Source: Cyanophora paradoxa CCMP329
Taxonomy: Eukaryota; Plantae; Glaucophyta
Direction of reading: 5' to 3'
Assembly (NCBI GenBank): GCA_004431415.1
Contig: QPMI01000062.1
Location: 496,001 to 560,000 of the forward strand
DNA length: 64,000 nucleotides
A program made the position numbers and the translations under genes. Shown piece by piece: positions 9,728 through 24,718 of the stretch (position 1 is the stretch's first letter; the number at the start of each line of letters is the position of its first letter). The notes under the pieces were generated by a model. The model searched no databases, was not told the origin of the DNA, and was given only the letters and a program-made list of their open reading frames with translations.

Positions 9728-12221
9728 TTTCATGTATCATGAAAGCCACGAGCGCCACGTGCTTGACCATGGGCAGCCTTGTGATGAGCGGCCTACATAG
9801 CTAGGGCCCGGGCCCGGGCGGGCCAGCTGCAGGCAGCGAACCGCAGACCTCCGAGGCTGGCGATCGGACGGAGCTGAGGGGGCTCCCGGCCCGGCGGGCC
9901 AGCCCAGGAAGGGGGTGAATTTTCTAGATCGATATCTTGAATGACAGTGACCTGGCAATCCAATTGCAATCAGTGGATCTCGAAGACCTGGCAATCATTG
10001 AATCCAACTGCAATCAGTCAAGCTTCGGCCCCTTCGCCGAGTCGGTTGAACTCGGAAGCTTAAGGTCACAAGCAGGGGGGCTCCGCCCCCCCGCACCCCC
10101 CCAGTGTTATTTAGGAGTCTTTGATTTCTTGTGGTCTATTCTTCTTCTTCTACGTACTACTTCTACTACTACTACTTATTAATTGAACAAAGAATGAGAA
10201 TGAAGTACTAAAGTTGTAAAGACAGAACAGAAGAAGCTGAAGCACTGAACATAAAGAACACAGATGTGAGTGCATGGAAGATGTAGAAATTAAACACTGA
10301 TCATGTAATCTGGAAACAATGCACGAGATGCAATGTAGTCCAAAGCGAGGCTTCATCATTTATGGTTTGTCATGAAACACAGTGCTTTGCAATTGGTGTT
10401 TAATTCTTGGCTGGCAAAGAAATTAAAGGGCGATTTGATATTCTTAGCTATAGCTATAGCTTTAGCCAGGAAGATGAGAAGAAGAGCTAAAGCACTGAAC
10501 AATTGCAAGAAGTTTGAAATTGCACACATGAATCTCTTGTGGTTCATGATCAATCGTATTACAAAGAACGAAAATGAAGCTGAAGCACTGAAGAAGAGAG
10601 CATTTCAGAACAGATCCAGAAACAATGAAGTGATCACAAAACAATACAAAAGAAGCACATGCAATGTATACGTATTTCAAAGTTTTGATCATTTATGTTC
10701 TAGATCTGTCATCGAACATCGAGTTTTGGTGTTAAATACTGGCCATGGCTGGCAAAGCAAGGGCAATCCTTAGCAGGAAAGTGGGCAAGAAGCTTGAACG
10801 TTAACATGTATTGCAGCAGTGATATACTGTCGAAGTCCCTGTAGCTTTGTACCCCTGTACCTCAGTCTGCCTGTACCCCCAATACACCACCTTGCCAGCT
10901 ATCTAGCCTGGCAACACATTGCGGCACTGATCATGAACAATTGCAAGAAGCTTAAGAATTGAACACTTCAATTGGCAACTTGGCAAAAACAACCTGGCAA
11001 GGTTGTAGAAGAATTGATCATGAACAAGTCAATCATTGATCATTTTATTTCATGCATGTAACACGCAACAATATTTTATGCATGCAATGATGCCATGATG
11101 AATAATGCATGCATCATGATCAATGTAAAGATCTAGATGCCACTGATCTAGATGTTAAACAAACAATGCAAGTACAATCTCTTCAATTTCAATTTGGCAA
11201 GTTTCTGTTTTGTTTGTTGTGAATGTGTGAACGTTGTGTTAGTGTTGTGTTTTTTTGTTTTTTGTCTTGTTTTGTTGTTTGTACATTGTGGAACATATGC
11301 TTTTCTTTTTGTTGTACATGCCAAGATGTTTAATGTATTATTTATTGTTTGCCAAGAATCGAACTGGTTCTGAATCGGCACTGAGCAATCAAGTGCACCA
11401 CAGCACTAAAGGGACTTTCCATTGACAGAACTGCCGGATACCCAATTTCAGCCACAAAACTCCACTCTGTGGCAGATCTTCCCACTTCATACTTCCAAGC
11501 TCACTGGCAAGGGCAGCGGCTGCCGCTACTTTTTTTAAGAAGTCACAGAGTCATACATCACTCAGTGACTTTTCCTTCTCATGTGGAGCCTGTCTCAGTG
11601 ACCACAGTGAGTCAAGGCAGCACTGGCAGCCTTCAAGTGCATATCGAATTGAGTATACCAATGAGAGCGACAACTCAACCACTGGCCTGCGATTCACAAG
11701 TTCCCCACTTACCAAACATGCTGGCACGACTGTTGGCAGCCCAGGCTGGACCACCCATGGAGCACAGTCCAGTCAGTGACTTTGACTGTTCGCACCGCTC
11801 TCAATGCTGGCAGTTTGAGTCTGCCGTAGTACTAAACGGAATTTTCTTCCAAGGGGAACATGGGTTAATCTACTATGTAGCATGATCATCGGATCAGAGT
11901 CACAGTCAGTCACTGGCAGAGTCACCCGGTGACCCAGTGTCCAAATCGGGATCCGATGATCACCGGATCATGCCATGATGGATCATGTGCATCATGCCAT
12001 GATGATCATGATCATCATGGCAAGATCACGACCCGAGGGGGCCCCGGGCTCATGATGGCGATCAGTTATCGCTGATTCAGTGACGGCGTCCGCGGTGCTC
12101 CACAGGCTCCGCGCCGGTTGAAGGCCGGGACCCCCTAGCTGTAGCCGCAGCCCGCGGCCGGCAGGGGACCGCCCCGTCGAAGGGCTCCGAGGGCTCGGCG
12201 TAAGCTTCATGATTCATGAAA
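9728..12221. mobile_element. Probable decayed repeat/transposon relic (AT-rich, CpG-poor island)
   Basis: Abrupt AT-rich core at about 10090-12050 with TG/CA excess, degenerate internal direct repeats and weakly inverted ends. No recognisable ORF and no TSD found. Confidence 0.35.
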
Positions 12222-12475: not shown

Positions 12476-15400
12476 TCAGCGCTCCCCGCCCACCGCGTGC
12501 CGCCAGTCGCGGCCTCCCGCGTCGTACGCGTCGTCGCCCAGCAGGTCGGCCCTCTCTGCGGCGCCCCGCGGCGGCCGGTCAGGCCCGGGGCGCGGCGGGG
12601 CGGGGGGCTGGGGCGGGGGCTGGGGCGGCGGACCGCGGCGCTTGCGGGCGCTGCTCGAGGGGAGGGCGGCCTCCTCGCTGCTGCCGCCGTCGCTCATCGC
12701 CCGCAGCTCCTCCCCCGACGAGTCCCCGGCCTCGAGCGCCGGCGCCCGCGCCGCGCGGGAGGGGCCGCGGGGCCGGCCGGGGCCGCGGCGGCGCGGGGCG
12801 GGTGGCTCGAACGTCGCGTCGGCCCCGTCGTCGTCCTCCTCCCCGTCCCCCAGGTCCTCGATCGCCTCCTCCCCCGACCCGCTGCTCCCCTCGCCCCGGC
12901 CCCGGCCTCCTCCCGCCCGCCCGCCCCGCCCGCGCCCGGCCCCGGGCCGCGGCCGCCCGGCGCCCCGCCCGCCCCGCCTCGGCCGCCCCGGGCCGGCCCG
13001 CGGCCGCGCCCGCTCCGCCGCGGCCTCGCCGCCCCGCGATGCGAACGTGGCGAGCACGTCTGAAGCCCCAAGTAAGGGACCGAGCCGAGCCGCCCGAGCG
13101 CGAGAAGGGGGCGCACCCTTGAGCTTGGGCTTGGGGACCATGCGCTGGAGGACGGCGTTGGAGCCCGTGAGGCGCTGGTTGGGGCGCTGCGAGACGGGGA
13201 TCGCCGCCTCCGCCTCGAGGAACTCGGCCAGCCGCTGCGCCGCCGCGCTGTACGCCACCCGCGCCTCCTCCTTGGTCGCCACGCCGCGCAGCATGCGGAG
13301 CATCTGGGGGTCCCGGTCCCCCACGTCCCACGTCGCCCCGGGCCCGAAGAGCTTCCGGTAGAACGACTCCCCGTGGTACTCCCGCACGCTGCACTGCAGG
13401 ATCGGCTCCGCCGCGCTCGGGCCCAGCGCCGCCAGCGCCATCCGGTCGGCGGCGCGGCGGGCGGCGAGGAGCGAGGGCATCGTGCGGGAGATGACGGCGT
13501 TGTAGTACCAGACGAAGGTCGCGATGTGCTTGTCGTGCGCCGTCACGCGCGTCCCCGAGGCCGGCCGCACGTGCAGCCGCGGCTTGCCCCGCCCCGCCTC
13601 CGACTCGCCGCCGCCGCCGCCGGCGCCGGCGCGGGCCCAGGGGGCGGCGCCGGTGTCGGGGACGGCGCTGAGGTCGCTGTGGGCGACGCGGCGGCGCTTG
13701 GAGGTGGAGCCCGGGCCCTCCTCCCCGCTGTTCGAGCCCGGCACGGGGCTCCCCGCCCCGCTCACGTTCCGCCGCCCCCGCCGCCCGCCCCCGTCCTCCC
13801 ACTCGCTCGACTCCCCGTCCTCGTCCCCCGCCGCCGGGGGGTACGCCTCCTCGACGTGCGCCGCCGCCGCCGCGGCCGGCTCCTCGGGCTCGCCCTCCTC
13901 GGCGGCCTCCTCGACCTCCTCGGCGCCGGCGGCCGCCGCGCCGTTCCCGCGGTTGGGGAAGACGCCGCGGTGGCGGGGGATGGCCCCCGCTCCCCAGAGG
14001 AAGCGCTTGAGCTCCCGCATCGCCTCCTCCGACTCGGCGTCCCCGGGGCGCGCCCCGCGGGCCACCTCCACCAGCAGCTCCCGCCGCCGCCGCCACCGCG
14101 CCGCGTCCCGCTCCGCGAGCTGCTTGAGCCAGCGCGCCCCCGCGAGCTCCTTGAGCTCGTCGGGCCGGTGGAGGAGCGGGGCGGCGGCGTCGGGCCCGTA
14201 GGCGGCGACCATGAGGACGTCGGCGCCGCGCTCGGCGGCCTCGCGGGTGGGGTAGACGGCCTGCGAGCTCGCCTCGAGGGGCTCGAAGACGACGCGGAAC
14301 TTGCGCCCGTTCGTCCCCGACTGCTCCACCCGCGGCCGCGGCAGCCGCCCCGACCCCGTCGCCTGCGACCGCGGCCGCTCCGCCCCGCGCCGGCCCCCGT
14401 TCGCCCCGCCGCCGCCGCCAGCGCCGCCGCCGCCGCCGCCGCCCTCGCTGGAGTCGGGGTCGCGCTCGAGGGAGCCGCCGCCGCCGCCCTCGCCGTCGTG
14501 CCCGCTCCCGTCGCGCTCGTCGTCGCCCCGGTCCACCTCCTCGCCCTCCTCCTCCTCCTCCGTCTCCTCCTCCTCGCCGGGGCCCCGGCGGGGGCCCCGG
14601 GCGGCGCGCGCCGCCGGCACGGAAGGCGGGGAGGGCGCCGCGCTCGACGAGGAAGCGGCGGACGGCGATGGCGGCGTCGCGCACGTCCTGCGCCCGGGGC
14701 CGCACGCCCCGCGCCCCCCGCAGCATCGCCGCCCGCTCCTCCGCCAGCGCCCCCGCCGGCCCCGCCAGCTCGGCGAACCACGCCGAGCCGGTGTGCTCGC
14801 GGAGCTCCTGGGGCCGGTAGAGCAGCGGCGCGGCGAGCTCGGGCCCGTACACGGCGAGCATGAGCACGTCGGCCCCGCGCTGCGCCCCCTCCAGCGACTC
14901 GTGCATCGACTGGAAGCGGTCGTGGAAGACCTGAGCGGGCCGCGCGGTCAGGCCAGGCCCGGGCAGCCTCGGAACGGCGGGAGGCGGGGTGGCTCGCCTC
15001 GAGGCGGGCGCGGAAGCGGCCGCTGGGGCGGCGCTCGAGCTTGGCGCGGGGCAGGGGCGCCGCGGGGCGCCGCTGGGGCGAGGAGCCGCGGCCCGAGGAG
15101 CGCTGGGGCGGCTCGGCCTCGCGGCTCGCCCCCGGGCCGGCGGCGAAGGCGCCGTGGAGGACGAGGTACTCGCGGAGGCGGCGGATCGACTCGCGGACCT
15201 CGGCGGTGCGCAGCTGCTCGCCGCAGGCCGCCCGCCGCAGGATGCCGCACGCGCGCCGCACCTCCGCCTCCTCCTCCAGCGACGTGTGCCACGAGCCCTC
15301 CTCGTACTCTGCGCGGCCCGTCAGATGTAGTACGAGGCGCCGGCGGGGCGAGGGGCGGACGGGGGATGCAGGAGGGGTAGAAGAGGAGCGGGGCGGCGGT

Positions 15401-18400
15401 CTGGCGGCCGTAGATGGCGAGGAGGGCACAGTCGGCGCCCTCGCGCGCGTCCCGCTCCAGCTCGAAGCGGCTCTGCAGCTTCTCCCGCTGGATCTCGATG
15501 CAGACCTGCCACTTGCCCCGCTGCAGCTCCACCCGCGCCCGCGGCAGCTCCTCCGGCCTCCGACCCCCGGCCCCCTCCCGCGCCGGCGCCTCTTCGGCCA
15601 GGCCCTCGGCCCCCGACGTGCCGCCCTCCTCCTCCTCCGAGCCCGAGCCGCGGGGCCGCTTGGGCGGGCGCGGGCCCTCCAGGCCCCCGGTGCGGTTCGA
15701 GGGCCGCGGGGCCGTGGGCGGCTGCTGGCCGACGCGGGGCCGGGGCACGGCGCCCTTGTCGGCGAGGAAGTGGCGGAAGATCTTGGCCTGCGGGGGGGCG
15801 TCAGCGCGGGCCGGGGGACGCCACGAGGAGCGAGGGGCGGGGGCGGGGGCGGACGGCGAGGTTGCGCTGGAGGATGGGGACGAGCTCGCCCTTGGCGTAG
15901 CGCACGAGCGTCTCCCGCTCCTTGCCCATCGCCTGCGGCGGCGCCCCGTGCAGCGCCTGGAACCACGGCGTCGCCCGGTACTCGGGCATCAGCTCCGGGT
16001 GGTAGAGGAGCGGCGTCGCGTCCTCGGGGCCGTAGACGGCGAGCATGAGGACGTCGCCGCCGCGCTGCGCCTCGTCCTCGGTCGCGTACATCGACTGCAT
16101 GCGGTCCTGGAACTCCTCGAGGCGGGCCCACCACTTGCCCTCCCCCCGCTTCTCCACCATCGCCCGCTTCACCCCCGCGCTCGACCCCGCGCTCGGGCGC
16201 GTCGCCCGCTGCCGCCAGGGGGCGCCCCGGTCGGAGCGCGCCCCGCCGGGCCCCCCGCCGAGGCCGCCGAGGCCGTCCAGGTCGCCGGCGAGCTCGGGTC
16301 CGCCTCCGCCTCCTCGATCAGCATCGCCTCCGCCGCCGCCGCCGCCGCCGCCTCGTCGGGGTCGCTGGCGGCGCTGCCGACGGAGGGGAGCGGGGCCGCT
16401 GGGCGCGGGGCCGGCCGGGCCCGCGGGCCGGCCGCGGCCGCCGCGCATGGAGAGGATGGCCCCGCGACCTCGTCCTCGAGGAAGTGGCCGCCGCCGCCCT
16501 CCGCCGCCGCCCCCGGCTCCTCCTTCACGGCGCCCCGCGCGAGCACCCGGGGTGCTCCCGCCGCAGCGTCCGCAGCAGCGCCTCCGCCAGCGCCGCGCTC
16601 TCCTGGCACTCTGCGCCGGCGCGTGAGGCCGCGGCGCGCGTGGCGGGGGCGGGCGGGCGGGCGGGGCGGACTGGAGACGAGGCGGTCGGCGACCTCGTCG
16701 CGCGAGCGCTTGGCGGGGCGGATGTCCACCGCCAGCACGCTCTCGTACAGGTCCTCCACCTGCGCCCGCGTCGGCAGCACGCGCTTGATCCTGCACGCCG
16801 CCGCCCAGGGTCAGCCGGGTGGGGGCGGGCGGGGGCGGGGCCGGCGGACCCCTCGACGAGCTCGCCGCAGGAGACGTCGGTGCCGAGGAAGGGCTCGCCG
16901 CGGGCCTCCGGGGTGAGCCACTCCTTGCCCTTGCCCTTGCGCCGCAGCGCCTCCGGCCCGCCGTCCCGCGTCGAGAGCTTCTTCACGATGCGGCTCTTCA
17001 CGTCGGGCAGCCGCCGCATGTACGTCGTCAGGTACGACTCGTCCACGATCTCGTCGTGCAGGATGGAGCCGTCGGCGTGCGGCTCGTGCTCGGGCGCCGG
17101 CGGCGGGTCCGTCTCGACGGCGCGCAGCCAGGCGAGGTCGGCGCGCGTCCACGCCGGGTCCTGCACCGCCTCCGCCAGCCGCTCGAGCGCCGCCGTGACG
17201 GACCGCAGCCGCTCCAGCGGCACGCGCGCCCGCACGACGACGTAGTGGTTGGGCTGGTGCCGCGGCGGCACGCCCCGGGCGCTCTCGCCGCTGACGAGGG
17301 CCTCGCGGGTGGAGTACCACTCGAAGGCGCGGTGGCACTGGACGCAGAGGTCGATCTGTCCCTCCTCCTCGGCCTCCTCCTCGGGCTCCCGCTCGGGGGC
17401 CTCCTGCGGGGCGGCGGCGGGGGCCGGCCCCTCGCCCCCGAGGGACTCGATGCGGGACTTGGTGGCCCGCAGGCCGGCGAAGGCCCACGCCCGCGAGCGC
17501 GCCGCCGCCGCCGCCGCCCGCCGCGGCCGCCCCGCCCGCGGCGCCTCGCTCTCCCCGCACTCCAGGCAGTGCACGTGCGTGTTGAAGAGCTCCGTCCGGC
17601 ACGCGTTGCACTCCAGCCGGTCCCCGCCGGCGTCGGGGCAGCGCCCCATGCCCATCATCCCCGGCGCCCGCCCGAGGCCGCCGGGGCCGCCGGCCGCGTC
17701 CGCCGCGCTGTTGAAGAGCGCCGAGAGGGCGCTCGCCGCCTCCCGCATCCGCTGCCGCCGGGAGTCAGAGAGGAACGTCAGCGGGCCCGGGGCGCGCGCT
17801 CTCTCACCCGGCTCTCGCAGGGGGAGGCGGCGGCGTCGCCGGGGGTGCCGGGGCGCGTCGGCGTGCCGGCGCCCTCGCGCTTGACGGGCGTTGGGGGCAC
17901 GGAGAGGGCGAGGGGCGGGGGCCCCAGGCCGGCCGCCTCCCAGTCCCGCACGATGACGGGGTTGTACTCCCCTGCGGCGGCCCGGGATCAGCGGCCCGCT
18001 ACCAGGCGGATCGGGGGGCGGGCGGGGGCGCACCCTCCTCGCCGAGGATGACGGCCATCGCGTCGGCGGCGAGGCGGGCCCAGCGGCGCAGCTGCCCGCG
18101 CTTCTCCTCGTCGCACGCGTCGGCGCAGCGCTTCGCGTGCTCGAGGACCGAGAGGGCGAAGTTGTAGCACATCTTCTTGACGGCGATGACGCTCTTCTCG
18201 CCCATCCCGAGGGCCCGGTCGATCTGGAGCTTGGAGAGGGCCTCCGGGATGCGCTCCACGGGGAGGAAGTCGGCGGCGACGGCCACGCTCTCCTCCAGGT
18301 TCAGCACCTGGTGCGGGCACCCGCCGGGGATGATCACTGCGCCCCGCGCGTCAGTGGACGGACGGGCGCTGGGCGGGGGCGGGGGCGGGGCGGGGCGTGC

Positions 18401-19789
18401 GCACGGGTCTCGCCGGGGCGGAGGAGGGCGACGCGGGGCAGAATGCCGCAGCGGGCGAAGACTTCCATGGGGACGAAGGTGGGCGGGAAGCGGTCGTAGA
18501 TCTCGTGCGCGAGCAGCGGCTCCTCGCGCATCGCCGCCGCCTTGTGCGCCGGCCAGATCATGAAGAGCTTCCGGCCCCGGATCGTCGTGTTCCACGCGTA
18601 CGTCCCTGCCCGCCTGCCTCAGCCGCGAGCGGCCGGTGGCGCCGAGGGCAGGGAGCGGGACGGGGAGCGGACCGCAGGCGTCGATGTGGAGGCCGGTGTG
18701 GGTGAGGCGGGGCCCCATGTAGGCGAGGCGGTGCACGGGGACGAAGACCTTGCCGAAGTAGCGGAAGAGGTTCTCCAGGCTCCGGTTGTCCATCACGCCC
18801 GGCACCTTGATCACCTGCTCCCCGATCTCCGGCAGGATGTTGTCCACCTGCCCCGTCCCGCTCGGCGCCGTGTGCGAGGCGCAGGCGGCGCTGCCAGGCG
18901 AGGCGGGCGGGCGCGCGCACGTCAAAGTCGGGCATGTAGAAGAGGTTCGGCTCCGCTTCCTCCCGCGCTTCCGACTTCCCCGCAGCGCTGCGCGTTCGGC
19001 GTTCGGCGGCTGGCCGGCGCGCATCGCACGCGCGGAAACGAGACGAGGCGTACCGCATGCGGCCGAAGAACTCGGCGGGGCTCTGGCGGTGCGTGGCGCG
19101 CGTGACGAGGTTGCGTACGATGAGCTCGCGCACGCCCTTCGCCTCGAGCTGCGACTGCAGCGAGTCGTTGCTCCATTTAGATACGTCGGGAATCTTTATC
19201 GCGTTGCTGAAGATGACGGGCTCGTTCCGCTCGACGCTCTGCCGCGGGTATCGGGATCGGCGAGCCAAAACGGCGCGGAGCTGCGACACGCACGAGTTTC
19301 AAGAACTTCTCGTCTGAATAGTCTCCGACACGCGGGATCCGCTGCAGGACGAACGGCAACCTCCGCCGACTGCGGTGCTCACGGCCCTCAAGCTGAATCT
19401 TCTGCGAGGGCGGACGAGGAGCGGAATCACGCGTCGGATTATAGCTGGGCCGGCATAGTGCATGTATTCAAATGTCCGCTCACCAAAAGTTCCCTCATCC
19501 TTTCGTCGGGCAGCTCCCGAAGTCCCGCGTAGAAGTCGAAGAGCGAATCCTCGGCTGCCCAGTAGTCTCGCATGTCATCGACGGCTTCGTCTTTCACAAC
19601 AGCCGGCGTGGCAAGGTCAAACACGGTCGGCAGCACGCGTCCCCACTGCCGGCCGTCATGCCTCAAACTGCGCAGGGGAAGCGCGGAGCTGCTGCAGCTG
19701 GCTTCCCCGCGGCCCGCCATCGTTTCCGGCATGCCATCGCCATCGCTGTAATCGTCGCGACGCCCAGCTTCGGAGACCTCGCACGCCAT
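12476..19789 (-). CDS. JmjC-domain 2-oxoglutarate/Fe(II) oxygenase (putative histone demethylase) with Zn-finger and five AP2-like repeats
   Basis: YMGPRLTHTGLHIDAC (HxD, about 18680-18725), WNTTIRGRKLFMIWP, and IIPGGCPHQVLNLEESVAVAADF (distal His). Cys cluster ECNACRTELFNTHVHCLEC...DLCVQC (about 17335-17615). Five C-terminal repeats of the form GKW/GRF.ARLE...Y.T.E.A.R.ADVLMLAVYG. The start codon is uncertain and may lie upstream, towards 20050. Confidence 0.8.
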
Positions 19790-20640
19790 TGCGGCAGCCC
19801 GCGGCCGTGTCGGTGTAGGAGAGGACGGCCGGTCTGTACATCGCGAGCAAACGTGCGATTCAGTGCCGTGAAAGACTTTCTGCACAACGTCCGCCCATGG
19901 GCAACGAACCTCGCGCGGCCATCGCCGCCCGGGGCGACGATGTCCCGCCACGTCCGCCGGTACTTTCTTCCATTGCGACGGGTCTACGTCGCCCGTCGCC
20001 AACGCGCGAGGTGTGCTCGAAAATCGATGCGGCAAGCTATGCAAAGCTGCTTCCTGTACCCGGGTGCCGAAGAAGCTTGCGCGAGTGTTTCCTACACCAA
20101 GCCATCTTCCGGTGATGCGGTTACACCAGCGCTACACGAAAACTGCTAGAGAACTCGCACGAACGCCGCGCACCGGCTGAGCGGTCCTCGGCTTCCGAGT
20201 TCCAAGAGTGCGACTGCGACGGCGGGGACGCGCATCGCGATGCCTTCCTCAGACTATAAAAGCACACTTTAGCTCTCCTTGGAGCCCACGCCTCGCGCGC
20301 TATCGAGAACGATCGATCCATCGAGCAGTAGTCAATTTGCAAGATCTAGATCCGGCCCAGCTCGTCTCCAGCCCGAGTCCAAGGTGGGCGGCCAGCCGGT
20401 ATCCAGGGTGGCCGGTCCGGGCCTCGAGCACTCGTGACTGTCTGACTGCACAGAGACTAGTACTGCGAATGCAATGTTGAGCCTAGACCAGCATGCGCAG
20501 CTGCAATTGTCCCGCGCGCCCCGCCCAAGCCCTCGATCTGAAATCAGAGTGCTGTTGAAACTTGAAACCAAATTGACCTACAGCTAAACGGGGCGGACAG
20601 CCCCGGCGCAAAAAAGAAGCCGCAGAGCGCGCGGCTGTGG

Positions 20641-22327
20641 CTAGGAGGCGTGCGGGGCGGGGCGGGGCGGGGCGGCGAGGGCGAGGGCGGCGATGGCCTG
20701 GCCGCGCTCGCGGTCTCGGGCCTCGAGGAAGCGGCGCACGCGGGCCCGGCGCTCCTCCAGGATCGCCTCGCAGCGGCCCTCCAGCTCCGCCTCGGGCACC
20801 CCCGCCCCGGCCCCGGCCTCGGACGAGGCGGAGGAGGATGCCGCCGAGCGCCGCGGCGAGGCGGAGGGCGACGAGGACGAGGAGGGCGTCTCCAGCTCCG
20901 GCACGGGGGCCGGCGTCCCCGCCCGCCTCGCCTCCGCCTCCCCCTCCTCCGACCCGCTCGCCGCCCACCCGTCCCCGTCCTTGCCCCCGCACCCGCCCAC
21001 CAATCGCCTTCGCAGCCCGCCGGACTTCTCCTCCACCACCGCCGCCGCCGCCGCCGCTGCCGCCGCCGCTGCCGCTGTTGCTGCTGCAGCCGCCGTCGAC
21101 GCCGTCGCCGCCGCCCGCCCCTCGGCCTCCGCCGCCGCGAGCGCCATGGCCGAATCGCGCTCGCGCTGACTCCTCGCCCGCAGGTACGCCGCCTGCTCGC
21201 GCTGCGGGAGCGTCAGGCGGGCGGGGCGGCGGGGGCGGGGCGGGGGCGGGCCTTGAGGGCGCCGACGTGGCGCCAGTAGAAGAGGATGGAGTAGAGCATG
21301 TGCCAGGCGGTGAGGTCGGGCCACATGACCTCGAGGAAGAGCAGCAGGGCGAGCGACGTCTGCCACACGAGGAAGTCCGAGAGGCGCGTCTCGCCCGAGG
21401 TCCGCACGAGCAGCTCCGGCCGCGGCAGGTCCTCCGTGTACAGGCACCGCTCCACCAGCTCCTCCGTCACGTCCCTGCGCCGCCCGCTCGGGCCCGACCG
21501 GCGCGCGGCGGTTGCGGCGGCGGCTCGCGCGCACTCGGGCTGCAGGAGGCCCCGCGCGACGCCGTCCACGCAGGTCGCCGCGGCCCGCGACATCTCCTCC
21601 TGCGACGTGTACGCGAACGCGATGTTCAGCACCGCCCTGCGCCGCTCGCCCCCGTCAGCTAGCGGGAGGCCGGCCGCGCGGTCAGAGGCCCTGACCGGGT
21701 GTTGTCGCGGGACATGTGCTGCGCGTGGGCTATCTTCTGCTGCAGATCCGGCCGGAGCATGCTCCAGTCGCCCAGCACGCGGACGCTCACGCCGTACCGG
21801 TGCACGATGCCCCTGCCAACACGTCAGCGGACGCGGCACACGAAGCCCGCGCGGCGCACTCTTCGGAGATGATGCGGGAGAACTTCTCGGCAGCGAGGTC
21901 CATCAGGGCGTTGACTTCTTCCGGCGAGCGCTTGAAGTTCTCGATGCTGAAGGCGTAGACAGTCACGACGCGGACTCCGAGCTCCAGGCACCACTGGAGC
22001 GCCTGCGCGGCGGGCAGCGCATGCGGTTCAGGTGCCGCGGAAGCGATGAAGGCAGGTGCGGGGCGAGGCCAGCCGCGCGCGAAGGCGGAGGGTGACTAGA
22101 TAGTTGGCGCGCACCTCCTCCAGCTTGCGGTAGCCATGGATGTGACCGACGCTTCGGTCTAGGTTGCGCATCCTCGCCCAGCGGCGGTTCCCGTCCATGA
22201 TGAACGCGACATGCTCTGGAACTGGTCCGCGGCGGAGGAGCCCGAACACTGCGCGCCAGAAGATGGGCAGCCGCGGCGCCTGTCTCCTCTCGCTAGGCTC
22301 CCGCTTCGCGAGGGCTTGCTCCTCCAT
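20641..22327 (-). CDS. DHDDS: cis-prenyltransferase / dehydrodolichyl diphosphate synthase catalytic subunit
   Basis: [71 protein letters not shown] and WPDLT. The C-terminal [11 protein letters not shown] helix resembles that of DHDDS. Confidence 0.93.
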
Positions 22328-22358
22328 TCCGGCGGCAGTGTACCCTCGCAGGAAAAAA
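22328..22358. promoter_or_regulatory. 31-bp spacer between the divergent start codons of DHDDS and the GCKR-like gene
   Basis: ATGs at 22327 (-) and 22359 (+). Contains GTACCC at 22340-22345. Confidence 0.5.
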
Positions 22359-24718
22359 ATGGCCGCCGCCTGGCCGCCGCCGCAGCCGATCACCGAGATG
22401 AGCAGCTCGCTCACATCAGACCTCGACCTGGAGACGCCGGCCGGCATGGTTCGGCGCCTCGCGCAGTGCGACGAAGAAGTGTACGCGGGCTGGGAAGGCC
22501 AGCCTGGCTGCTTAGCGCCCGAGACCGTGCACGTCGTCGACCGCATCGCCGCGCACGCCGAATCCGTCCTCCGGCACCCCGGCCCGCACGCGAGTCAGCG
22601 CTGCTGCAGCGCTGCGCGCCTGTCCCCAGCTAAACGCCTTCCGCTGGCTGCGCCCCGCAGTCGTGATGAGCGGCGCCGGGACGAGCGGGCGGCTGGCGCT
22701 CTTCCTCGCGCGCTCCTTCAACCGCGTCCTGCGGGCCGCGGGCCGCCCGCCGGCCTTCCACTTCCTCATGGCCGGCGGCGACAAGGCGTTCTTCAAGGCC
22801 CAGGCGAGCGTGACGCACGCTCCGGCCCACCTGGGCCCTCAGAACTCGTGCAGGAGTCGGCGGAGGACAACCCGACGCAGGCGGTGGAGGACCTGCGCGC
22901 GCGGCTACGGGAGGCCGGCTGCGACGGCGAGGCGGCGCGCGTGCTCTACGTCGGCATCAGCTGCGGCATGTCCGCCACGTACGTCGCCGGCCAGCTCGAC
23001 TACCTCATGCACCGCGTCCGCCCCGCCGCGCCGCGCCCCGCCGCGCCCGCGCCGACGTCGGGGCGGCAGGAGAACTGCGGGAGCGTGCTGCTGGGGTTCA
23101 ACCCGGTGGAGCTGGCGCGGAAGGTGCGCGTGGCGGCGTGGGAGCGCACCTTCCACGACGTCGCCGCCGAGCAGGAGCGCCTCTCCCGCGACCCCGCCCA
23201 CGCCTCCCGCCGGCGCGCCCCTGCCCGCCCCGCGCGCCGCCTTGCGCGCGCTCCCTCTGACGGCGCGCAGGTTCGTGCTGGCGCCGATCGTGGGCCCCGA
23301 GCCAGTGGCCGGCTCGACGCGCATGAAGGGCGGCACGGCGACCCTCGTCATCCTCGCCGCCGCCTGGGCCGCCGCCCTGCGGCCCCTCCTCGGCGGCGCC
23401 GGGCCGCCCTCCTCGGCGCCCCTGCTGCGCTCCTTCGCCGCCGTGAAGCGGGCCGCCTACGCGGACGTCGAGGCGCTGGGGCGGTTGGTGGCGGCGGCGG
23501 GGGCGGCGCTGCGGGCCCCCGGGGGCCGCCTGTGCACGGCGGGGCCCGACGTGCTGGGCCTGCTGGCGCTGGTGGACGCCTCGGAGTGCCCGCCCACGTA
23601 CGGCGCCGCCTTCGAGGACGTCCAGGGCTTCCTCCCCGGCGGCCTCGCCGCCGCCGGCGACCTCGCCTCCGCCCCGCCCCTCACCCCCCGCGACGCCCTC
23701 CTCCTCCTCGCCCCCGCCCCCTCCTTCGTGCGTGCCGCCTGCGCCCACGCCCGCCCTCCGCCGGGGCCGAGCCCCGCGCAGGAGGAGGGCGCGGCGGCGG
23801 AGGAGGCGATGCAGGGCGGGCCCCTAGCGAAGTACGCCGAGCGCAGCGCCGCGTCGGGCGCCCCCGTCTGCGCCGTCGCCATCGACTTCGGAGGTGCGTG
23901 CCCGGCCGCCTTCGGGAGGCGGCTCGCGCCCCCCTGTGACGCCGGCCCCGCAGCGGAGCGGGCGCCGGTGCCGGCGCAGGCCGCCCCGGAGCTGGTGGCG
24001 CGCATCTGCCTGCCCCGGGACGGCGAGGAGGACGAGGGAAGCCCCGCGCCGCTGCGCGCCGAGATGCGGCGCCTGCGGAGCGCCCTCGCCGCCAAGTACG
24101 CGCTCAACGCCGTCAGCACCGGCGCCCACGTGCTCAAGGCGCGGCGCCCATCTGCTCTTCCCCCCGCCGCCTCTGATCCCCCCCTCAGGGCAAGGTGTAC
24201 ATGAACTTCATGGTCGACCTGAAGGCGCGCCCCGCGACGCAGCGCCCCCTCCTGCCGGCGCCCGCCCGTCACCGCCCGCCGGCGCCGCAGGTGTCGAACA
24301 ACAAGCTCTTCCACCGGGCGGCCGGCCTGGTGCGGCGCTTCTTCCCCGGCGTGGGGCCCCGGGAGGCGGTGGCGCACCTCGTGACGGCGATCTACCTCGA
24401 CGAGGGGCGCCCGCCGGCGAGCCCCGAGGCCGACGGCGACCCCGACGCCGCGACCGTCGCCGCCCACATCGCCGTCGCCGTCACCAAGCCCCAGGCGCGC
24501 CCCGCCCGCCCCGTCGCCACCCGCAGCCGCGCCCGCGCGCGAGCGGGGCGGCCTCCCGCAGGTGGTGCCCCTCGCCCTGGTGCTCGCGTCGGGGCCGCCT
24601 CGGGCCCGCCGCCGCCGCCGCCCTCCGCGCCGAGCCCGTCGTGCGCACCCTCCTTCGCAGCCTCTCCGCCCCGGGCCTGGCCCAAGTCAGCCCCGCTCTC
24701 CCGCCCCCGGGCCGCTGA
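22359..24718 (+). CDS. GCKR: Glucokinase regulatory protein-like / duplicated MurQ-like double-SIS protein
   Basis: PITE, VMSGAGTSGRLA, MAGGDKAF..AQ|ESAED, VGISCGMSATYVAGQLD, LLGFNPVELAR, VGPEPVAGSTRMKGGTAT, LVDASECPPTYG, and KYALNAVSTGAHVLK|GKVYMNFMVDLK|VSNNKLFHRA, colinear with GCKR. One apparent frameshift near 24591. Confidence 0.88.

What the first reader, a model, noticed from the sequence alone, without database searches (positions are those of the whole stretch)
13375..16165. JmjC demethylase-like enzyme fused to five divergent AP2-like DNA-binding repeats
Seen: five repeats downstream of an intact JmjC HxD...H triad and a Cys-rich Zn module, at about 15975-16165, 15375-15545, 14790-15055, 14150-14345 and 13375-13580. 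An example is AMVEKRGEGKWWARLEEFQDRMQSMYATEDEAQRGGDVLMLAVYGPEDATPLL, and each repeat is followed by a shared W..L helical extension. Known: AP2/ERF domains have a three-stranded sheet with GKW.A.I followed by F.T.EEAA.AYD.AA...G. Here the YRGV and WLG motifs are replaced. Inference: a self-targeting chromatin eraser that reads DNA directly, analogous to Zn-finger-targeted plant REF6 but using a new AP2-like subfamily. I do not recognise this architecture from characterised JmjC families.
Basis: partly seen in the sequence, partly recalled or inferred. Interest (0 to 1): 0.78.

Follow-up and report, generated by a model that had tools for sequence, protein, structure and literature searches.

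The report
JmjC enzyme with five AP2-like readers
A spliced gene of the alga Cyanophora likely encodes one protein that joins an iron-dependent JmjC enzyme to five repeats descended from the plant AP2 DNA-binding domain, so the enzyme would likely find its own target sites on DNA; the public gene model stops before the repeats, likely because of assembly errors.

Summary
The window is Cyanophora paradoxa DNA. Spliced-RNA contigs define 15 introns of a minus-strand gene. They carry four single bases that the assembly lacks; a fifth and sixth are inferred from codon usage. One ORF of about 2,140 aa follows: JmjC with an intact H-x-D...H triad, a split ZZ-like zinc finger, then five ~125-aa repeats. 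The public model (951 aa) ends before the repeats. No single contig spans the junction; two overlap there at equal depth. Pfam misses the repeats, but the family profile's only PDB hit is the AP2 protein WRI1 (E 5e-4), and a confident model ranks AP2 domains first among 48,161 chains (Z 5.8, modest). Eleven other Cyanophora proteins carry 49 related units and no JmjC. The self-targeting principle is known (REF6, CbfA); this pairing was not found in my searches or earlier scan notes. New variant, interest 0.5.

The parts
12476..19922 (-). Whole coding span, ~2,140 aa after splicing; 15 RNA-supported introns (14 GT-AG, 1 GC-AG, 52-82 nt), a possible 16th (12556-12633) not covered by RNA
   Evidence: residues 1-884 are identical to EukProt model P0016
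18266..19302 (-). JmjC/cupin domain over six exons; H295 (18688), D297, N305, K312, H375 (18313)
   Evidence: Pfam JmjC E 2e-11, Cupin_8 E 7e-12; best PDB hit JMJD6 E 1.4e-13, KDM7 homolog 4e-4
18034..18265 (-). Segment directly after JmjC, likely helical as in several JmjC enzymes (inferred from sequence; not folded)
   Evidence: the KDM7 alignments extend into it (to residue 432)
17245..17610 (-). Split ZZ-like zinc finger: two CxxC pairs, ~70-aa insert, D-L-CxxC, then H-x3-H
   Evidence: first half Pfam ZZ E 0.0024, 18.1 bits, below the 21.4 cut-off; second half no ZZ hit
16297..16545 (-). Linker with four single bases present in RNA contigs but missing in the window (behind 16384, 16424, 16459, 16545, each lengthening a G/C run) and a fifth inferred near 16297; the public model skips 16545-16373 and then ends at a stop at 16168-16166
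   Evidence: (runs X1, X2, X4)
15728..16175 (-). Repeat 1 (intron 15788-15854)
15130..15550 (-). Repeat 2 (intron 15309-15360)
14613..15060 (-). Repeat 3 (GC-AG intron 14931-14997)
14560..14612 (-). Sixth frame break, inferred from codon usage; RNA alignment was skipped here as a repeat
13955..14347 (-). Repeat 4, intron-free; folded: three strands, one long helix, five further helices
   Evidence: AlphaFold2 pLDDT 83 and 88, pTM 0.80 and 0.84; VIA-align
13175..13588 (-). Repeat 5, intron-free, the most divergent within the gene and the closest to the paralog profile
12476..13059 (-). Low-complexity tail: Arg/Gly-rich tract, two GRP motifs, basic NLS-like motif, acidic patches
   Evidence: no Pfam hit

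Best explanation
The gene likely makes one protein of about 2,140 residues in which a JmjC oxygenase with an intact iron-binding triad is joined to five AP2-derived repeats that likely bind DNA and would bring the enzyme to chosen loci, where it likely modifies histone tails or other chromatin proteins. Shown: spliced expression, the domain order, the triad, the AP2 ancestry of the repeats. Strongly inferred: one transcript and one frame across the linker. Inferred: each repeat puts its three-stranded sheet into the DNA major groove as WRI1 does, with the helical extension clamping the core helix; the flexible spacers (about 25-120 aa) let the repeats read separate short sites; the ZZ-like finger holds the H3 N-terminus near the active site. 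Chemistry, my odds: N-methyl demethylation 50%, JMJD6-like lysyl hydroxylation 35%, other or none 15%. Repeats 1-4 likely arose by duplication inside the gene after one unit of a Cyanophora-expanded AP2-like family was captured.
For: One ORF: contig A covers ~20050 to ~16329 and contig B ~16357 to ~14412; they overlap by ~29 nt in a GCG tract at like depth in 3 of 3 RNA-type runs laid on it (19/19.6, 32.7/36.7, 33/38.9). The RNA-corrected frame has no stop before the overlap. Over 16295-16166 the frame that runs into repeat 1 has 0 of 43 A/T-ending codons and no Met until 16160, while the annotated tail has 7 of 43 (gene-wide GC3 98%; P 8e-6). AP2 ancestry: 13 hits among 1.84 billion representatives, one with four Pfam AP2 domains (P0010, E 1.7e-6); the 16-sequence profile hits 1 of 177,635 PDB sequences, WRI1 (E 5.4e-4); one paralog unit hits phage HNH-endonuclease family phrog_99 (E 4e-5); WRI1, TEM1 and the GCC-box domain rank 1, 2 and 4 of 48,161 chains in both models (Z 5.8/rmsd 2.8/83 aligned; Z 5.6/3.1/82; Z 4.0/2.1/55 of 63). 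The strand part of all 5 repeats is net basic (K+R 6-8, D+E 1-5) and NLS-like motifs are present. JmjC with DNA-binding domains of its own is known from REF6 (PMC7105484, abstract) and CbfA (PMC2661138, passages). H3-binding ZZ domains use an Asp/Asn plus an invariant Asp (PMC6138639, passages); the finger here has Asn after its first Cys and Asp before the third CxxC (the mapping to those positions is recalled).
Against: No contig spans 16288-16364, and the fifth and sixth missing bases are inferred, not seen. The one DNA-type run laid (X11) did not confirm the four insertions: no cover at two sites, and cover without the base at 16424 and 16545 from contigs that the output does not list. No repeat reaches Pfam AP2 even at E<=3-5; Foldseek gave no match at E<=0.001; Z 5.8 is below the tool's own bar of 8. 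The canonical AP2 motifs are lost in 5 of 5 repeats, and a conserved Glu sits on the first strand of R1-R4. The JmjC core is nearest to JMJD6, for which the review reports RNA binding and no evidence of DNA binding. The ZZ match is sub-threshold and covers half of the finger. Paralog units for profile A2 were picked by me, six of them for AP2-like N-termini, which favours the WRI1 hit; the unpicked 48-unit profile still scores P0010 (2.7e-12 in a single-sequence search).
Confidence: 0.55

Rival explanations
1. The fusion is real, but the protein works like JMJD6 on RNA-processing or other non-histone proteins, and the AP2-derived repeats have become protein- or RNA-binding modules.
For: Best PDB match is JMJD6 by nine orders of magnitude; JMJD6 hydroxylates splicing factors and binds RNA (PMC5352680, section 4 part 1 and passages); the repeats lack canonical AP2 motifs; the tail is Arg/Gly-rich.
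Against: Atlas feature neighbours of the JmjC-to-finger part are KDM2/7-type, fungal JmjC+ZZ+zf-4CXXC and KDM6-type clusters (0.86-0.91); a zinc finger after JmjC is a chromatin-enzyme layout; the strands stay net basic.
Confidence: 0.25
2. It is mainly a transcription factor or scaffold: the repeats bind DNA and act without the enzyme, as the CbfA C-terminal domain does for most CbfA-dependent genes.
For: CbfA-CTD alone regulates the larger gene set (PMC2661138, abstract and passages); 11 of 11 paralogs with these repeats have no JmjC.
Against: The triad and the aligned Asn and Lys are intact, which suggests that catalysis is kept.
Confidence: 0.13
3. Two separate genes, as in the public annotation: a 951-aa JmjC protein and a downstream repeat protein.
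For: EukProt model P0016 ends at 16166; no contig bridges the GCG tract.
Against: The annotated skip of 16545-16373 is read through by RNA contigs; the annotated tail fails the codon test; contigs overlap at equal depth with no intergenic gap.
Confidence: 0.07

Closest known systems
Arabidopsis REF6/JMJ12 (PMC7105484, abstract)
   Same: JmjC enzyme with its own C-terminal sequence-specific DNA-binding array.
   Different: REF6 uses four zinc fingers and is a proven H3K27me3/2 demethylase; here five AP2-derived units, no JmjN hit, JMJD6-like core, activity untested.
Dictyostelium CbfA/CbfB and fungal CbfA-like proteins (PMC2661138, passages)
   Same: N-terminal JmjC, then zinc-finger region, then a lineage-specific C-terminal domain that binds DNA; the paper proposes repeated swapping of that domain.
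   Different: CbfA has two finger regions and an AT-hook CTD; here one split finger and AP2-like repeats. No CbfA sequence was available to compare.
JMJD6 (PDB 3ld8; PMC5352680)
   Same: Closest solved JmjC core (E 1.4e-13 over residues 266-398), same triad.
   Different: JMJD6 is a 403-aa protein with no zinc finger and no DNA-binding array; this protein is five times longer.
AP2/ERF domains: WRI1 (7wq5), TEM1 (7et4), AtERF1 GCC-box domain (2gcc)
   Same: Three-stranded sheet plus Ala-rich helix with Asp and Gly at the AP2 positions; helices follow the core as in the WRI1 linker (PMC9401623, passages).
   Different: Canonical motifs lost, below Pfam detection, extension of five predicted helices (~70 aa) in every unit, five units spaced by disordered linkers, fused to an enzyme.
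Cyanophora multi-repeat proteins P0001-P0009, P0011, P0013 (EukProt, unnamed)
   Same: Same unit over its whole length (hhalign probability 98.2, 100 columns).
   Different: 3-7 units each, none with JmjC; 12 of 49 units keep an AP2-like [FYK]xGV first strand.

Membership tests
JmjC Fe(II)/2OG oxygenase | Pfam JmjC domain above cut-off | tested here: met
   44.7 bits against 24
JmjC Fe(II)/2OG oxygenase | HxD/E...H iron triad | tested here: met
   H295, D297, H375 align with JMJD6 H187, D189, H273
JmjC Fe(II)/2OG oxygenase | Catalytic activity | not testable with these tools
   needs an assay
Histone lysine demethylases (KDM2-7) | JmjC closest to a KDM subfamily | tested here: inconclusive
   PDB sequence search puts JMJD6 first, KDM7/2 at 4e-4 to 0.09; the last strand alone is most like KDM3B (E 0.13); Atlas features favour KDM2/7-type clusters; no JmjC tree could be built for lack of homolog sequences
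REF6 / KDM4-5 type | JmjN domain and C2H2 zinc-finger array | tested here: not met
   no JmjN or C2H2 hit at E<=1 on residues 1-884 or on the later pieces
AP2/ERF domain (PF00847) | Pfam score above cut-off | tested here: not met
   0 hits on the six repeat pieces at E<=3; 0 of 16 rows at E<=5
AP2/ERF domain (PF00847) | Canonical YRG, WLG, RAYD motifs | tested here: not met
   0 of 5 repeats; only the helix Ala, Asp and Gly pattern is kept
AP2-like fold (superfamily) | Three antiparallel strands packed on one helix, AP2 structures as top matches | tested here: met
   E8-12, E18-23, E28-34, H37-52; AP2 chains rank 1, 2, 4; Z only 4-5.8; only repeat 4 was folded
AP2-like fold (superfamily) | Sequence homology to AP2 by profile | tested here: met
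   WRI1 E 5.4e-4; P0010 E 1.7e-6; hhalign of the five repeats to P0010's AP2 units probability 80.8, E 1.3e-5
AP2-like fold (superfamily) | Sequence-specific DNA binding through the sheet | not testable with these tools
   only net basic charge seen
ZZ zinc finger | Pfam ZZ above cut-off, contiguous Cys/His ligand set | tested here: inconclusive
   first half E 0.0024, 18.1 against 21.4 bits; remaining ligands lie ~70 residues downstream
CbfA-like proteins | JmjC plus two zinc-finger regions at ~25% identity to CbfA | tested here: inconclusive
   one finger region seen; no CbfA sequence returned by any tool; a fungal JmjC+ZZ+zf-4CXXC cluster scores 0.89 in the Atlas, a lead only

The most novel reading that the evidence does not exclude
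A JMJD6-class oxygenase has been turned into a sequence-targeted chromatin enzyme: a five-unit AP2-like array, from a glaucophyte family that Pfam does not see, steers lysyl hydroxylation or arginine demethylation of histones to chosen DNA motifs, which would be a locus-specific use of marks known so far only as untargeted or disputed.
Probability: 0.2. Interest if true: 0.78.

Novelty: new variant of a known kind. Interest (0 to 1): 0.5.

Why it matters
How chromatin enzymes find their targets is mostly answered by separate recruiters; REF6 and CbfA are among the few that carry their own DNA reader. A JmjC-AP2 fusion would be an independent solution in the least studied branch of the plant lineage. 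The gene also exposes at least 12 Cyanophora proteins with 54 AP2-derived units that Pfam misses, so profile-based counts of glaucophyte transcription factors are likely too low. It shows too that single-base assembly gaps in GC-rich DNA can hide a domain fusion from every survey built on the public gene models.

Tried and rejected
No whole genome was held, so copy number, a separate JMJD6 ortholog and the full family size were not tested. No run is on record as RNA; X1, X2, X4 are treated as RNA because they skip GT-AG introns exactly, X11 as DNA because it reads through them. Contig-overlap arithmetic at the two GCG/GGC breaks was considered as a frame check and dropped, because short shared pieces may lie between contigs. 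Word-index searches found no relatives of the repeats and only the gene's own model for JmjC. The five-repeat profile alone hit no AP2 in the PDB (3 chance hits, E 0.85-5.6). Foldseek gave nothing at E<=0.001, with WRI1 at rank 11 and 4. Atlas hits for repeat 4 were unnamed, mostly viral, at 0.79: a lead only. Zinc-finger pieces found nothing in the PDB (one search was out of frame). The viral-contig scan could not run on alignment A2. The one metagenome hit L001 shares a short Cys motif in an unrelated frame and was rejected as chance. The first codon test used a wrong frame and was redone. The tree is the quick one; the careful search did not finish; R5 has a long branch and is unplaced. Literature: 'AP2 domain'+JmjC+fused+algae gave 1 Brassica review (listing only); 'AP2 domains'+jumonji+'domain architectures'+stramenopiles 0; Cyanophora+JmjC 1 genome paper (listing only); Cyanophora paradoxa+AP2+transcription factors 18 papers, of which I read passages of one (PMC11712027, nothing on this). 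The library is open-access only and I opened no supplements, where domain tables could list this gene. Earlier scan notes: none by sequence or words.
Full report
Setting. The region is GC-rich eukaryotic DNA with short introns. An exon of the JmjC part matches EukProt model tig00000241_g21043.t1 at 100%, a Cyanophora paradoxa protein. No whole genome was held.

Gene structure. Contigs of three RNA-type runs from two studies skip 15 introns on the minus strand between 19909 and 13060: 14 GT-AG and one GC-AG, 52-82 nt. The tool only guesses that these runs are RNA; exact intron skipping is the reason to treat them so. A fourth run, X11, reads through introns. One contig (3,007 nt in X1, 2,991 in X2, 2,997 in X4) carries the 5' end, JmjC and the zinc finger down to about 16329. 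A second (1,760 nt in all three) starts at about 16357 and carries repeats 1-3. Shorter contigs carry repeats 4 and 5. The breaks fall in GCG/GGC tracts that the tool skipped. The first two contigs overlap by about 29 nt and have like depth in each run.

Frame. The RNA contigs have one base more than the window behind 16384, 16424, 16459 and 16545; each lengthens a G or C run, the usual long-read error. X11 did not confirm them. With N at these places every segment but one lands on the frame that codon usage prefers; in 16385-16424 the three frames score within 0.2. One more base near 16297 and a second adjustment near 14590-14600 give one ORF from the ATG at 19922 to about 12476; both are inferred. 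The first is well supported: between 16295 and 16166 the frame leading into repeat 1 has 0 of 43 A/T-ending codons and no start codon of its own, whereas the frame of the annotated stop has 7 of 43 against a gene-wide GC3 of 98%. The public model matches mine for 884 residues, jumps the error-rich stretch by an intron that RNA does not use, and stops at 951 aa. So the fusion is invisible in the public proteome.

JmjC and finger. Pfam JmjC and Cupin_8 pass their cut-offs. H295, D297 and H375 align with the JMJD6 iron ligands (PMC5352680 section 4, part 1 of 2). N305 and K312 align with JMJD6 N197 and K204, recalled as 2-oxoglutarate contacts. Of 16 PDB sequences hit, four JMJD6 chains come first (E 1.4-1.5e-13), then KDM7, PHF2/8 and KDM2A (4e-4 to 0.09). 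Atlas features of residues 135-725 point instead to KDM2/7-type, fungal JmjC and KDM6-type clusters (0.86-0.91). The substrate class is therefore open. The Cys module has ZZ-like first pairs (E 0.0024, sub-threshold); its third pair and two His follow a ~70-residue insert. Nine of 16 human ZZ domains bind the H3 tail through an Asp/Asn and an Asp (PMC6138639, passages); candidates for both are present, by a recalled mapping.

Repeats. Five units of about 125 aa, statistically real. Pfam does not see them. Their profile finds 13 of 1.84 billion representatives: 11 C. paradoxa proteins, a Chlamydomonas protein with four Pfam AP2 domains and one unnamed environmental protein. The 11 paralogs hold 49 units, 3-7 each; 12 keep an AP2-like first-strand motif; none has JmjC. 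A profile of 5 window pieces and 11 paralog units hits only WRI1 in the PDB (E 5.4e-4), through the core helix into the start of the linker; I chose six of those units for their AP2-like starts. AlphaFold2 folds repeat 4 as three strands, a 16-residue helix and five more helices (pLDDT 83 with 5 rows, 88 with 16). VIA-align ranks WRI1, TEM1 and the GCC-box domain 1, 2 and 4 of 48,161 in both runs; Z is modest (5.8 at best) and Foldseek finds nothing significant. The WRI1 alignment runs over chain residues 66-160, that is the first AP2 domain and its two linker helices, which clamp the core and touch the DNA backbone (PMC9401623, passages). The extension is thus likely an enlarged AP2 linker. 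A quick tree groups R1-R4 (SH-aLRT 95) and leaves R5 unplaced among paralog units, which fits duplication inside the gene.

Mechanism. Most likely the array binds several short DNA sites, the finger holds a histone tail, and JmjC modifies it (0.55). Rivals: a JMJD6-like enzyme for non-histone substrates with repurposed repeats (0.25), a transcription factor whose enzyme is secondary (0.13), two genes (0.07).

Comparison. It works, if the inference holds, like REF6 (PMC7105484, abstract) and follows the JmjC-finger-swappable-tail plan described for CbfA (PMC2661138, passages). It is a JmjC oxygenase by the tests run. It is not a REF6 ortholog and not a PF00847 member, though its repeats belong to the AP2 fold lineage. 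My four literature searches for the pairing or for Cyanophora JmjC and AP2 proteins showed no report of it; they cover open-access main text only.

Verdict. A real, expressed and apparently unreported domain fusion, masked by assembly errors, with a hidden AP2-like family behind it. The principle is known, the function untested, and the fusion so far seen in one species. New variant of a known kind; interest 0.5.

Noticed in passing
P0001-P0009, P0011, P0013 (C. paradoxa EukProt): An expanded family of 514-2,323-aa proteins with 3-7 AP2-derived units each and no Pfam AP2 hit; likely uncounted glaucophyte transcription factors.
   Followed up: partly
P0002: Gene model joins a RecD2-type helicase to six of these units; a second enzyme-plus-array fusion or a merged gene model. 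No RNA check.
   Followed up: no
P0001, P0004, P0006, P0009 C-termini: A shared ~65-residue terminal domain, seen by eye, with no Pfam hit; P0003 and P0013 may have a distant form.
   Followed up: no
window 16384-16545, 16297, 14590-14612, 13603: Cluster of single-base differences between the assembly and RNA contigs in very GC-rich coding DNA; other genes of this assembly may be split in the same way. The one at 13603 comes from a minor contig and was not used.
   Followed up: partly
window 20641-22594, minus strand: Upstream neighbour on the same strand: cis-prenyltransferase (Pfam Prenyltransf, E 2e-26).
   Followed up: partly
window 22516-24204, plus strand: Glucokinase-regulatory-protein-like gene with both SIS domains (E 3e-15 and 2e-11), head to head with the prenyltransferase gene.
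   Followed up: partly
window 10001-12000: AT-richer block (GC 41-44%) with ATGATC-type short repeats just downstream of the gene; possibly a mobile-element remnant.
   Followed up: no
P0012/P0015: Unnamed environmental eukaryote-like protein with three weak AP2-like units and no Pfam AP2 hit.
   Followed up: no
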